This document shows, one piece after another, positions 8,096-10,144 of a stretch of DNA of 34,950 nt. Below the pieces are notes generated by a model. The model saw only the letters and a list, made by a program, of their open reading frames with translations. It ran no database searches and had not been told where the DNA came from. Position 1 is the first letter of the stretch; each line of letters begins with the position of its first letter. The DNA comes from a virus. Taxonomy: Duplodnaviria > Heunggongvirae > Uroviricota > Caudoviricetes. The DNA is taken from IMG/VR virus record IMGVR_UViG_2541047119_000014; one strand, written 5' to 3'. Position numbers and translations under genes: made by a program.

Positions 8096-8647
8096 ATGAT
8101 GATTTTACAACCCATGGGGCGAAAAGGCCGTGCACCCGCTCATGTCCGTGCGTGGACACCTGAAGAAGATGCACTGCTGATTGCGCTTTATCCATCCACC
8201 CCGGTTAAGGATATTGCTGTCAGGGTAAAAAGAAGTTTCTGGGGTGTACATAACCGGATTGTTTTATTACGCGGTACTTACCCGGAGTTGCTCAAATGCA
8301 AACGTCCAAGATTTAAACATGATGAAGATAAATTTATCCGAAAAAATGCCAGAACGATGACCGGTAAGCAAATAGGAGAATATCTGGGGCGAGACCGGGA
8401 TTCTGTCCACAAACGGGCGCGATATATTGGCGTAAGCATGAAAAAATACGGAGAGTTGCTGCCCTTCACCCGTATACCTGATGATGATGTTCATCTTATT
8501 CGTGAATTACGGGATGCTGAATCACCACGACGTCTTACCTTCCGGGAAATAGGCGAGAAATTTGAATTATCCGAGAGTACGGTGAATTTTATTTATCACC
8601 ATCGCCGGACTGCCGAAGATGTTGTATTACGGGAGTTAATGCCATGA
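8096..8647 (+). CDS. Hypothetical DNA-binding protein with three HTH-like repeats
   Basis: 183 aa; three segments with an HTH-like pattern (WTPEEDALLIALY..., MTGKQIGEYLGRDRDSVHKRARYIG, LTFREIGEKFELSESTVNFIYHH). Confidence 0.5.
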   Translation: MMILQPMGRKGRAPAHVRAWTPEEDALLIALYPSTPVKDIAVRVKRSFWGVHNRIVLLRGTYPELLKCKRPRFKHDEDKFIRKNARTMTGKQIGEYLGRDRDSVHKRARYIGVSMKKYGELLPFTRIPDDDVHLIRELRDAESPRRLTFREIGEKFELSESTVNFIYHHRRTAEDVVLRELMP

Positions 8648-8955
8648 TAACGACATTATTTGTTGAATCAGACGAGCCTCTGGTATGTGTCGCCGGAATG
8701 TCGGTTTGTGGCGGAACGCTGACCGGTGTTTATTTCGGGGATTTGCGCGGTTATCCCTGGCATTCACTGGATGACGCATTTCCGCCTGATATGGAGGCTG
8801 TCGTGCTGATTGTTCAGTATGGTGACCAACAGGAACTGCGCATCGGCCATATGGGGTATGAAGGCTTTTTTATTGATGAAGAAACCGGAGCCTGCCTTGA
8901 AGATGAGGACGGACAGGTGACGCACTGGTGCCATATTTCAGCTTTACCGGAATGA
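8644..8955 (+). CDS. Hypothetical protein
   Basis: 103 aa ORF overlapping the previous stop. Confidence 0.45.
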   Translation: MITTLFVESDEPLVCVAGMSVCGGTLTGVYFGDLRGYPWHSLDDAFPPDMEAVVLIVQYGDQQELRIGHMGYEGFFIDEETGACLEDEDGQVTHWCHISALPE

Positions 8956-8969
8956 CGGGAGGTGAATGC

Positions 8970-9320
8970 GTGAGAAGTTATATTGATAATGAAAAACTGA
9001 AGACAATCAGCGACTGTCTTAGCTTGCTGGCAAAAATAAAAGAAACCATTGAAGAGATTAAATTTCAGCTTGAATACGAACCCTGTGGCGATGATACATG
9101 GCGTAACTCTGCCAGAAAAGCACTGGCTGTCTTTCAGAAACAACGCCGGACTGTTGAATACCGCCTTGCTGTATTGCGCCAGGAGGAAAAGGAAAGAAAT
9201 ATAAGACGTCATGAACTCGTTAATGATTTTCTTGTTCGTGAATTAAAGGAGCGTGTGCCGGAGTCGGTATTTTTTGAGTGTGAGGCTGTTGCCCGTAGCA
9301 AAGCACTGGAAACTGATTAA
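8970..9320 (+). CDS. Hypothetical coiled-coil protein
   Basis: In-frame GTG at 8970 preceded by GGGAGGTGA; the track ORF starts at 8928, so the start is ambiguous. Confidence 0.4.
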   Translation: MRSYIDNEKLKTISDCLSLLAKIKETIEEIKFQLEYEPCGDDTWRNSARKALAVFQKQRRTVEYRLAVLRQEEKERNIRRHELVNDFLVRELKERVPESVFFECEAVARSKALETD

Positions 9321-9332
9321 ACAGGCAGGTGA

Positions 9333-9668
9333 ATGATGAGTATTGAATTAAGATCGTCTTATGAATATCGTAAAATTCTCATCGCCGGAGGCATGAAACC
9401 GGAAGATGCAGAAAAAATCGTTTCTTTTATGGATAAAGAATGTGACAAACGGGATATGCCAGAAATTATTATGGATGACATGATTCTGCATTCAGCCGTA
9501 GCGTTAAGCCCGTTATGGATTGTGCATTCTCTTGCTGAAATTGCCAAAGGCACCGATAAACAGGCAGCTGTTGCTGCCCTTCAGACGCTTAATGAAATGC
9601 GTATATCTCCACGCCCGACATTAATACATATGATTCTGTCCAGCATGGAGGATAAAGCAAATGAATAG
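9333..9668 (+). CDS. Hypothetical protein
   Basis: 111 aa ORF in an AT-richer stretch. Confidence 0.45.
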   Translation: MMSIELRSSYEYRKILIAGGMKPEDAEKIVSFMDKECDKRDMPEIIMDDMILHSAVALSPLWIVHSLAEIAKGTDKQAAVAALQTLNEMRISPRPTLIHMILSSMEDKANE

Positions 9669-9858
9669 TCTACCCGCTGGATGGGCGCGGCCACTAATGG
9701 CCAGGAAGCATCATTTTTTTAAAACAGGCGAAAATATCAGTATATGTGGACGGTGGTTATATCTGGCTCATAATCGCGAGCCGGATACATTTGAAAGCCC
9801 TGATGACTGTGCCGAATGCCGCAGAAGAGTGAATAAGGAGAAAGATAATGGACAATAG
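9661..9858 (+). CDS. Hypothetical small Cys-containing protein
   Basis: 65 aa; CGRW...CAEC pattern. Confidence 0.35.
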   Translation: MNSLPAGWARPLMARKHHFFKTGENISICGRWLYLAHNREPDTFESPDDCAECRRRVNKEKDNGQ

Positions 9859-10144
9859 TTCTCTGTTGTTCTGGTGCTTATATATCACATCCTTTTTCGG
9901 CGCATTTGTTATTACCCGGTGGTTATGTCGAAAAATCATCTGCTTTTTTGATAAAAGACATCCGGTTGAACGGGCGGCTGATGCGCTCATTCAGCAGGCC
10001 ATTGTGTTATATAGCGGTGAATTTTTCTGCCGGATAACAACCAGAGATGGCTGGCACATAATGATTATTCCACCAACACACCATGCCCGGTGGGATGAGG
10101 CAGAAAAGGCTTTCCATGTCCGTAAAAAGGTAAATACGGTATGA
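9848..10144 (+). CDS. Hypothetical small membrane protein
   Basis: 98 aa; N-terminal hydrophobic helix LLFWCLYITSFFGAFVITRWL. Confidence 0.45.
   Translation: MDNSSLLFWCLYITSFFGAFVITRWLCRKIICFFDKRHPVERAADALIQQAIVLYSGEFFCRITTRDGWHIMIIPPTHHARWDEAEKAFHVRKKVNTV

What the first reader, a model, noticed from the sequence alone, without database searches (positions are those of the whole stretch)
8644..10144. AT-richer block of five small genes preceding gemA
The region from about 8260 to 10140 looks visibly more AT-rich than the flanking phage DNA (my impression from reading, not a computed value). It encodes five small proteins, including a small Cys-containing protein and a 98-aa protein with an N-terminal membrane helix. 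A compositional shift of this kind suggests a horizontally acquired cassette. The membrane protein sits where Kil-like or superinfection-exclusion functions often occur.
Basis: partly seen in the sequence, partly recalled or inferred. Interest (0 to 1): 0.45.

Follow-up and report, generated by a model that had tools for sequence, protein, structure and literature searches.

The report
Variable accessory-gene slot of Mu-like prophage
The AT-rich stretch is real, but it is the swap-prone accessory-gene slot at the end of the early operon of a Mu-like E. coli prophage, holding five small, selected proteins of unknown function; this kind of region is already known in transposable phages.

Summary
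The window is an Sp18-type Mu-like prophage of Shiga-toxigenic E. coli. The five ORFs are real, tightly packed genes: A 8644-8955, B 8970-9320, C 9336-9668, D 9661-9858 and E 9848-10144. The block has GC 0.446, against 0.571 for the late region. The strongest compositional change point of the whole window lies at about 10170, the E/gemA junction. The left edge is soft, because the block is the AT-richest part of a wider low-GC early domain (4451-10170, GC 0.474).

The genes are not one cassette. In about 50 related loci and 270 E. coli prophage copies they assort gene by gene, with junctions at gene boundaries. At least seven slot configurations exist, and all are AT-rich. None of the five has a homologue in phage Mu. 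B and D also occur in lambdoid or HK97-like phages.

All five genes are under purifying selection (dN/dS 0.10-0.15). None matches Pfam, NCBIfam, PADLOC or PDB. E has an N-terminal membrane helix, but the phage's Kil homologue lies elsewhere (4754-5008), and nothing supports an exclusion role.

Verdict: a new member of a known kind, the low-GC plasticity region of Mu-like phages. Function is inferred only.

The parts
8644..8955 (+). Gene A: 103 aa, very acidic (pI 4.05, net charge about -17), predicted all-beta. PHROG 6925, function unknown.
   Evidence: ORF and RefSeq CDS. PHROG hit. Charge and pI. Present in 160 of 270 E. coli prophage copies. Homologues only in E. coli and Salmonella Mu-like prophages. 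dN/dS 0.12. DUF551 hit is sub-threshold: 13 bits against a cut-off of 22, in 1 of 10 members. AF2 pLDDT 52, no fold match.
8970..9320 (+). Gene B: 116 aa, GTG start, no strongly hydrophobic stretch. PHROG 6158, function unknown.
   Evidence: RefSeq CDS. The PHROG alignment starts at residue 15 of the longer 130-aa ORF. Present in 135 of 270 copies. About 40% identical homologues in the HK97-like phage Fraca, next to xis/int, and in Aeromonas phage AsXd-1. dN/dS 0.15.
9336..9668 (+). Gene C: 110 aa, acidic. PHROG 1988, function unknown. Conserved motif ALSPxWI...IAxGxDKQAAVAAL.
   Evidence: Present in 248 of 270 copies. Only 10 relatives among 1.84 billion representative proteins. A 34% identical homologue, SfMu_14, lies in the same slot of Shigella phage SfMu. 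In some relatives the C-terminus is replaced at a junction at 9580. dN/dS 0.15.
9661..9858 (+). Gene D: 65 aa, probable Zn-binding protein (invariant HH...C...CxxC). PHROG 2358, function unknown.
   Evidence: Invariant residues A6 G7 W8 R10 P11 H17 H18 C29 W32 EPDTFES D49 C50 C53 R54. Present in 240 of 270 copies. Lies directly upstream of gemA in a Salmonella Mu-like prophage. Also found in lambdoid/P22-like early regions of Citrobacter and Trabulsiella, and in a Buttiauxella early-gene array of unassigned phage type. Pseudogene in some prophages. dN/dS 0.10.
9848..10144 (+). Gene E: 98 aa, with an N-terminal transmembrane helix (about residues 6-26). The C-terminal domain of about 65 aa is predicted to be cytoplasmic by the positive-inside rule. 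PHROG 17269, function unknown.
   Evidence: Hydropathy. Only 7 clusters among 5.8 billion proteins; every long contig examined is an E. coli Mu-like prophage with the gene immediately before gemA. Two allele classes are 50% identical, in 180 and 67 copies. TM codons 11-29 show 0 non-synonymous and 8 synonymous changes, while codons 35-98 have 43 of 64 non-synonymous. AF2 pLDDT 49, unusable.
8096..8647 (+). Left border of the slot: conserved HTH/Myb-like DNA-binding protein gene (183 aa). It is AT-rich (GC 0.455) and occurs as two allele classes.
   Evidence: Pfam HTH hits below cut-off, PHROG 323 'transcriptional regulator'. Weak similarity to Mu gp9/E8. Found in every related locus that covers this position.
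10141..10650 (+). Right border of the slot: gemA (Mu gp16 family). Its start overlaps the stop of E (ATGA). GC jumps to 0.575.
   Evidence: PF06252, E = 3.9e-29. 44% identical to Mu GemA. Change point at about 10170 and recombination junction at 10165.
10655..10678 (+). Terminator-like hairpin with a T-run, just after gemA. It is the first strong candidate transcription stop downstream of the block.
   Evidence: 9-bp stem with 5 G-C pairs, followed by TTATTTT.

Best explanation
The five genes are the promoter-distal cargo of the Mu-type early operon of an Sp18-like transposable prophage. They fill a recombinational accessory slot bounded by a conserved HTH gene (8096-8647) and gemA (10141).

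Shown:
- The genes are co-oriented, each has a Shine-Dalgarno site, and spacings run from -11 to +15 nt.
- Promoter-like sites inside the block are no more frequent than chance. The first strong hairpin with a T-run follows gemA.
- Each gene is a separate module. Related prophages differ by whole-gene swaps, with junctions at gene boundaries.
- Modules B and D are shared with unrelated temperate phages.
- All five genes are kept by purifying selection.

Inferred:
- The genes are transcribed together with the early genes on induction or infection.
- They encode dispensable, host-directed early functions such as host takeover, counter-defence or exclusion, rather than replication or morphogenesis. 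This matches the classical semi-essential early region of Mu.
- The low GC reflects the composition of the small-gene pool that circulates through enterobacterial temperate-phage early regions (about 44-52% GC), set against an unusually GC-rich phage core (57%). It does not reflect one recent transfer.
For: Identity of the element:
- 100% DNA match to an E. coli chromosome, and 97% to a region annotated 'inserted Mu-like phage'.
- Mu-type gene order: A, B, kil, gam, gp11, gp12, gemA, mor, lysozyme.

Composition.

Mosaicism:
- At least 7 slot configurations in about 50 loci, with 2 to 7 genes each.
- Junctions at 8653/8661, 8961/8967, 9321, 9580, 9845 and 10165.
- Per-gene frequencies differ, from 135 to 248 of 270 copies.
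- Mu fills the slot with the unrelated genes gp13, gp14 and gp15. SfMu carries a C-like gene there.

Shared pool:
- D occurs in lambdoid or P22-like contexts.
- B occurs in phage Fraca next to xis/int.
- A Salmonella relative carries gene A followed by a dATP/dGTP pyrophosphohydrolase gene in the slot.

Selection and operon structure:
- dN/dS is 0.10-0.15, similar to neighbouring core genes.
- Operon structure.

Precedent: low-GC 'regions of genomic plasticity' with small accessory ORFs in the left arm of Pseudomonas Mu-like phages (PMC4378225).
Against: - No expression data exist. Co-transcription is inferred from layout and consensus scans only.
- No function is shown for any of the five proteins. 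Pfam, NCBIfam, PADLOC, PDB sequence and profile searches, and fold searches all gave nothing.
- Homologues of A, B and D in other phages are not AT-rich (0.48-0.54). The pool-composition explanation of the low GC is therefore incomplete. A lineage-specific drift towards AT, or selection for AT-rich early DNA, is not excluded.
- C, D and E are each in about 90% of E. coli copies, so they behave almost as lineage core genes rather than free cargo.
Confidence: 0.8

Rival explanations
1. One reading: the block is a single horizontally acquired cassette, and its low GC marks a recent transfer from an AT-richer donor.
For: GC is 0.446 against 0.571, with a sharp step at gemA. None of the five genes has a homologue in Mu. 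The full five-gene arrangement is absent from many relatives.
Against: - The genes assort independently, with junctions at each gene boundary.
- Frequencies range from 50% to 92%.
- All alternative slot contents are equally AT-rich (0.40-0.475).
- The conserved HTH gene upstream has GC 0.455.
- There is no significant left-hand change point.
- Mu and SfMu show the same dip with different genes.
Confidence: 0.07
2. Gene E is a Kil-like host-killing protein or a superinfection-exclusion protein. It would act at the inner membrane, blocking cell division or the DNA entry of other phages.
For: - E has a predicted single N-terminal membrane helix with positive charges after it.
- It is an early-operon gene, as T4 imm is (recalled from general knowledge).
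- Its TM helix is invariant (0 non-synonymous and 8 synonymous changes) while the soluble domain exists as two 50%-identical alleles. This pattern is compatible with a specific membrane partner and an arms race.
Against: - E has no similarity to any Kil, Sie, defence or other family.
- The phage's Kil-family gene is at 4754-5008, in the Mu kil position.
- E has no promoter of its own above chance, so it is probably silent in the lysogen, where classical prophage exclusion acts.
- The structure model is unusable.
Confidence: 0.2
3. The block consists of morons: independently transcribed lysogenic-conversion genes expressed from the repressed prophage for the benefit of the host.
For: Composition deviates from the flanks. 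The genes are absent from Mu. The same slot in relatives holds reverse-strand genes, such as DUF2513 and a 79-aa ORF, that must have their own promoters.
Against: In this window all five genes are co-oriented with the early operon. Their stops and starts overlap or lie no more than 15 nt apart. Promoter-like sites occur at the chance rate (5 found, 5.1 expected), and there is no terminator between the genes.
Confidence: 0.1
4. The region is decaying, non-functional DNA. Its low GC results from relaxed selection and AT-biased mutation, and the ORFs are remnants.
For: D carries a stop or a frameshift in some prophages. The families are small orphans.
Against: dN/dS is 0.10-0.15 for all five genes, the same as gp11, gp12, gemA and mor. 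The ORFs are intact in most copies. The antisense ORF 8814-9212 is broken in 4 of 7 variants while the sense frames are kept.
Confidence: 0.03

Closest known systems
Semi-essential early region of phage Mu, segment gp13-gp14-gp15 (E14, E15, Mu_54) between gp12 and gemA
   Same: Same position in a syntenic early operon (gam, gp11, gp12, slot, gemA, mor). Small genes of unknown function. GC is lower than in gemA (Mu slot 0.469, gemA 0.553).
   Different: None of A-E is homologous to Mu gp13, gp14 or gp15. This phage has an extra HTH gene before the slot. It also lacks the intergenic gap before gemA where the Mu record annotates a semi-early promoter; here E and gemA overlap.
Regions of genomic plasticity in Pseudomonas aeruginosa Mu-like phages (Cazares et al. 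2014, PMC4378225)
   Same: Fixed sites, mainly in the left arm, that hold zero to six small non-homologous accessory ORFs. Some coincide with GC valleys. Most ORFs are restricted to the phage group and lack a function.
   Different: Different host and no sequence relation. The Pseudomonas plasticity regions that contain anti-CRISPR genes are at other sites. No anti-defence activity is known for the genes studied here.
Accessory early regions of lambdoid and HK97-like temperate phages (ea/b and nin-type arrays of small genes)
   Same: Homologues of D lie in such arrays next to Ead/Ea22, Lar, RNase T and dATP/dGTP pyrophosphohydrolase genes. Homologues of B lie next to xis/int. These arrays also evolve by gene-by-gene mosaicism.
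   Different: The phage architecture and replication mode differ. Homologues of A and E were found only in Mu-like prophages (A: E. coli and Salmonella; E: E. coli). The distant homologues of C that were traced are also in Mu-like phages (SfMu and Yersinia phages).
Small membrane-anchored early exclusion or host-killing proteins (T4 Imm, Mu Kil, lambda Kil); named from general knowledge, not tested by sequence
   Same: E is small, early and predicted to be membrane-anchored.
   Different: No sequence or profile similarity. Mu Kil's homologue in this phage is a different gene (4754-5008) and has no membrane helix.

Membership tests
Accessory (plasticity) region of Mu-like transposable phages | Lies at a fixed site between conserved core genes of the early (left) arm | tested here: met
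   Always lies between the HTH gene and gemA in about 45 related loci. The same site is filled by other genes in Mu and SfMu.
Accessory (plasticity) region of Mu-like transposable phages | Content is non-homologous or variable among otherwise closely related phages | tested here: met
   At least 7 configurations. Per-gene frequencies of 50-92% among 270 copies, while flanks are 84-100% identical.
Accessory (plasticity) region of Mu-like transposable phages | Small ORFs, mostly without assigned function and narrowly distributed | tested here: met
   65-116 aa. No curated-family hits. Family sizes: 7, 17 and 16 clusters among 5.8 billion proteins for E, D and A; 10 representatives among 1.84 billion for C.
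Accessory (plasticity) region of Mu-like transposable phages | Dispensable for lytic growth | not testable with these tools
   Only indirect evidence: natural variants lack A+B, D+E or B+C+D, and D is a pseudogene in some prophages. The viability of those prophages is unknown.
Moron (independent transcription unit inserted in a phage operon) | Own promoter and terminator flanking the gene | tested here: not met
   Promoter-like sites occur at the chance rate (5 found, 5.1 expected). Genes overlap or are no more than 15 nt apart, with no intergenic terminator. These are consensus scans only.
Moron (independent transcription unit inserted in a phage operon) | Base composition differs from neighbouring genes | tested here: met
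   GC 0.446 against 0.571 downstream. The contrast with upstream genes is weak.
Mu Kil (PF26843) | Sequence membership in the family and position directly downstream of gene B | tested here: not met
   E has no hit. The Kil-family protein is encoded at 4754-5008: an identical protein carries a PF26843 hit, and it shows weak BLAST similarity to Mu Kil.
Superinfection-exclusion membrane proteins | Membrane localisation | tested here: inconclusive
   One hydrophobic helix is predicted from hydropathy and conserved in all alleles. There is no experimental or dedicated topology-predictor result.
Superinfection-exclusion membrane proteins | Blocks infection by a second phage, usually when expressed from the prophage | not testable with these tools
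   Needs plating assays. No promoter of its own was detected.
DUF551 (PF04448), considered for gene A | Score above the Pfam gathering cut-off | tested here: not met
   13.0 bits against a cut-off of 22. Only 1 of 10 family members gives even this weak hit.
Zinc-ribbon or treble-clef small Zn-binding proteins, considered for gene D | Four conserved Cys/His ligands in two pairs or knuckles | tested here: inconclusive
   H17, H18, C29, C50 and C53 are invariant in 13 sequences. There is no family hit and no PDB profile hit. No structure was predicted.

The most novel reading that the evidence does not exclude
Gene E may define a new, very narrow family of phage membrane effectors. An invariant transmembrane helix would dock onto a specific inner-membrane partner, and the cytoplasmic domain would be replaced by allelic exchange (two alleles 50% identical, in otherwise 98-99.7% identical phages). 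That would be the footprint of an arms race with a host defence or with competing Mu-like phages. Together with the extremely acidic protein A (net charge -17, a possible DNA or protein mimic) and the Zn-binding protein D, the slot could be a reservoir of uncharacterised counter-defence or exclusion genes specific to enterobacterial transposable phages.
Probability: 0.15. Interest if true: 0.55.

Novelty: new member of a known kind. Interest (0 to 1): 0.25.

Why it matters
Mu-like prophages are common in Shiga-toxigenic E. coli: about 4% of complete E. coli genomes carry this lineage, some with up to 4 copies. They are active transposable elements. Their variable early slot is a compact catalogue of small proteins that are kept under selection and that the phage makes first after induction. 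In other phage groups, such slots have yielded anti-CRISPR and other counter-defence proteins. The map of modules and junctions given here tells an experimenter which natural variants to compare. As a discovery it is modest, because the architecture is expected for this phage type and no function could be assigned.

Tried and rejected
- Curated-family searches (Pfam, NCBIfam, PADLOC) for all five proteins gave nothing above threshold.
- PDB sequence searches for all five proteins, and profile searches for A, C and D, gave nothing.
- AlphaFold2 of E (4-sequence alignment) gave pLDDT 48.9 and of A (10 sequences) pLDDT 52.3. Both are too poor to interpret.
- Foldseek of the A model against PDB and BFVD gave no match at E <= 0.001. 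The afdb50 library was unavailable.
- My recollection that A resembles DUF551 was tested and not upheld.
- Rfam found no RNA family in 7500-11300.
- The antisense 132-aa ORF 8814-9212 was rejected because it is broken by stops in 4 of 7 variants.
- D and E as an obligate pair, for example toxin-antitoxin, was rejected. E occurs without D (the A-E configuration), and D occurs without E in Salmonella and in lambdoid contexts.
- An obligate functional link between D and gemA was rejected for the same reason.
- The idea that the gene families are intrinsically AT-rich was not upheld. Homologues of A, B and D elsewhere have GC 0.48-0.54.
- Literature searches found no functional study of these genes.
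Full report
**What the window is.** The 34.95-kb window is a Mu-like transposable prophage of the Sp18 type found in Shiga-toxigenic E. coli.
- Region 8000-10700 is 100% identical to the chromosome of E. coli E2855. It matches 232 of 5426 complete E. coli genomes.
- Region 6400-12400 is 97% identical to segments annotated 'inserted Bacteriophage Mu-like phage' inside two Stx-phage records.
- The gene order follows Mu: repressor (421-1134, minus strand), transposase A (1423-3513), B (3585-4517), a Kil-family gene (4754-5008), gam (5870-6400), gp11 (7044-7577), gp12 (7577-8092), gemA (10141-10650), mor (10720-11145), lysozyme (11217-11717), then morphogenesis genes.
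- Sp18 of O157 Sakai is described in the literature as an apparently intact Mu-like prophage (PMC2669165).

**Check of the observation.** The block is AT-rich, with a sharp right edge and a soft left edge.
- GC of 8644-10144 is 0.446, and of 8260-10140 is 0.444. This compares with 0.571 for 10141-32000, 0.490 for the small early genes at 4518-8095, and 0.539 overall.
- Third-position GC of the five genes is 0.37-0.47, against 0.55-0.68 for late genes.
- The block falls in the lowest 1.2% of 1.5-kb windows of the phage interior.
- A likelihood segmentation places the strongest change point of the whole window at about 10170, the junction with gemA (LRT 174).
- The same segmentation treats 4451-10170 as one low-GC domain (0.474). 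The best internal split, near 8970, is only borderline (p about 0.06 by block permutation).
- The conserved HTH gene immediately upstream (8096-8647) has GC 0.455.

**The five genes.**
- Each gene has a Shine-Dalgarno-like sequence, and the spacings are -4, +14, +15, -8, -11 and -4 nt.
- D has invariant H17, H18, C29, C50 and C53.
- E has a hydrophobic helix at about residues 6-26, followed by a cluster of Arg and Lys.

**Are they real genes?** Yes.
- Across unique variants from about 50 related loci, median pairwise dN/dS is 0.12 (A), 0.15 (B), 0.15 (C), 0.10 (D) and 0.15 (E). The flanking genes gp11, gp12, the HTH gene, gemA and mor give 0.10-0.22.
- The 132-aa antisense ORF 8814-9212 is interrupted in 4 of 7 variants and is not a gene.
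- All five proteins match PHROG families of unknown function.
- No RNA family was found in 7500-11300.

**Comparison with relatives.** I fetched annotated E. coli loci, 36 IMG/VR loci found through gemA, and contigs found through homologues of the proteins. The slot between the HTH gene and gemA takes at least seven forms:
- A-B-C-D-E, as in this window.
- The same arrangement with a 50%-identical allele of E.
- A 61-aa two-helix membrane protein in place of A and B, with either E allele.
- A-B-C' followed by a reverse-strand DUF2513 gene in place of D and E.
- A, then a homologue of Mu gp14, then a reverse-strand 79-aa gene.
- A-E only.
- A seven-gene form: a 61-aa gene, a 75-aa gene, then A-E.

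Junctions with the window sequence fall at 8653/8661, 8961/8967, 9321, 9845 and 10165. All of these are at gene boundaries. One further junction lies inside C, at 9580. The junctions share a similar ribosome-binding context, ACGGGAG...ATG.

Counts of prophage copies in complete E. coli genomes:

| Gene | Copies | Share of gemA copies |
|---|---|---|
| gemA | 270 | baseline |
| A | 160 | 59% |
| B | 135 | 50% |
| C | 248 | 92% |
| D | 240 | 89% |
| E, allele 1 | 180 | 67% |
| E, allele 2 | 67 | 25% |

The genes therefore assort one by one, not as a cassette.

**What the low GC means.** It is a standing property of this part of the early operon, not the mark of one transfer.
- Slot GC is 0.40-0.475 in every configuration, while gemA-mor stays at 0.55-0.56.
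- Phage Mu fills the same position with the unrelated genes gp13, gp14 and gp15 and shows the same, milder dip (0.469 against 0.553 for gemA).
- SfMu shows the dip as well (0.457 against 0.538).
- Within the slot, GC does not track variability. The widespread genes C and D have GC 0.405 and 0.455, while the less frequent A has 0.50.
- The families are not intrinsically AT-rich. Homologues of A, B and D elsewhere have GC 0.48-0.54.
- My reading, which is inference: a GC-rich phage core (57%, above my recalled E. coli average of about 51%) is joined to early accessory genes that sit at or below the usual composition of enterobacterial temperate-phage early regions. A lineage-specific drift toward AT is not excluded.

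**Distribution of each gene.**
- E is almost an orphan. It has 7 clusters among 5.8 billion proteins. Every long contig examined is an E. coli Mu-like prophage, with E immediately upstream of gemA.
- A has 16 clusters, in E. coli and Salmonella. In a Salmonella Mu-like prophage it is followed in the slot by a dATP/dGTP pyrophosphohydrolase gene.
- C has 10 relatives among 1.84 billion representative proteins. These include SfMu_14, which lies in the same slot of Shigella phage SfMu and which the SfMu paper lists as absent from Mu and D108.
- D has 17 clusters across Enterobacteriaceae. It sits directly before gemA in a Salmonella Mu-like prophage. It also sits in lambdoid or P22-like early arrays next to Ead/Ea22, Lar and RNase T genes. 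In some E. coli prophages it is a pseudogene.
- B has about 40% identical homologues in the HK97-like phage Fraca, next to xis/int, and in an Aeromonas phage.

**Function.** Nothing could be assigned.
- There were no hits in Pfam, NCBIfam, PADLOC, or PDB by sequence or profile.
- AlphaFold2 models of E (pLDDT 49) and A (pLDDT 52) were too poor, and fold searches gave nothing.
- A is strikingly acidic (pI 4.05, net charge about -17 in 103 aa). This is a lead towards a mimic-type inhibitor, not evidence.
- E is the most suggestive gene. Between the two alleles, in a background 98-99.7% identical at the DNA level, codons 11-29 (the membrane helix) carry 8 synonymous and 0 non-synonymous differences. 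Of codons 35-98, 43 of 64 differ non-synonymously. The helix sequence itself is therefore under strong constraint while the soluble domain is replaceable.
- By the positive-inside rule the C-terminal domain of E should be cytoplasmic (inference).

**The Kil and exclusion idea.** It is not supported by position.
- Mu kil lies directly after gene B.
- This phage has a protein at 4754-5008 that is identical to one carrying a PF26843 Kil hit and is weakly similar to Mu Kil.
- E has no promoter of its own above chance: 5 promoter-like sites were found in 7500-11300 against 5.1 expected. It is therefore probably silent in the lysogen.
- An early-lytic exclusion or host-directed role remains possible. 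I put it at about 0.2.

**Most likely mechanism.**
- The five genes are the distal cargo of the early operon. On induction or infection they are probably translated from the polycistronic early transcript, which plausibly ends at the hairpin with a T-run at 10655-10678, after gemA.
- The genes are independent modules exchanged by recombination at gene boundaries, among Mu-like prophages and, for B and D, with other temperate phages.
- They most likely encode dispensable host-directed functions, as is classically held for the semi-essential early region of Mu (general knowledge).
- The architecture matches the low-GC regions of genomic plasticity described in Pseudomonas Mu-like phages (PMC4378225).
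- The architecture and mosaicism are shown. Co-transcription and function are inferred.

**Verdict.** The single-cassette and Kil-position interpretations are not supported. The feature is a new member of a known kind, of modest interest. Gene E and the acidic protein A are the parts most worth an experiment.

Noticed in passing
window 10655-10678: A strong terminator-like hairpin (9-bp stem followed by a T-run) lies in the 69-bp gap between gemA and mor. In Mu the two genes overlap and no terminator is annotated between them. This suggests that mor is expressed differently in this phage, by readthrough or from its own promoter.
   Followed up: no
L007 3321-3662, also L024 and L045 (gemA-mor interval): In the relatives with the A-E slot, a reverse-strand 113-aa gene is inserted between gemA and mor. 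This lowers the local GC to about 0.475 and marks a second plasticity site next to the one studied.
   Followed up: partly
window 8096-8647: The conserved HTH/Myb-like gene bordering the slot exists as two allele classes, about 97% and about 70% protein identity. The classes reassort freely with slot configurations and with E alleles.
   Followed up: partly
L009 4471-5670 (E. coli JMF1): An IS903B insertion truncates gene B, and everything from there to the tail-fibre genes is deleted. This copy is a dead remnant of the prophage.
   Followed up: no
L001 5245-5654 (LC727881): A copy of this Mu-like phage is itself inserted inside an Stx2c-converting prophage. Its slot holds seven genes: an extra 61-aa membrane protein and a 75-aa acidic protein. 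The 19-bp HTH-stop/A-start junction (window 8643-8661) matches on both sides of the insert.
   Followed up: partly
hit H34, NZ_CP074995.1 77024-79256: One copy of the prophage sits on a 166.9-kb plasmid rather than on the chromosome. Some genomes carry up to four copies, consistent with active transposition.
   Followed up: no
L060 5326-6396 (Salmonella Mu-like prophage): Here the slot carries a 356-aa dATP/dGTP pyrophosphohydrolase (PF04447) gene after the homologue of gene A. A gene of the same family lies near a D homologue in a Citrobacter lambdoid prophage (L055). Nucleotide-pool enzymes therefore belong to the same mobile gene pool.
   Followed up: no
window 26501-27250: A GC spike (0.64-0.68) lies inside the 691-aa ORF 25354-27429, which I presume to be the tape-measure gene. 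It is the most GC-rich stretch of the window.
   Followed up: no
window 1-1195 and 32186-34950: Both ends of the window are also low in GC (0.386 and 0.484). They cover the repressor region on the left, and the tail-fibre genes and a minus-strand 190-aa ORF at 33486-34058 on the right. That ORF sits where relative L009 has an annotated recombinase-family gene. The dip studied here is therefore not the only one in the prophage.
   Followed up: no
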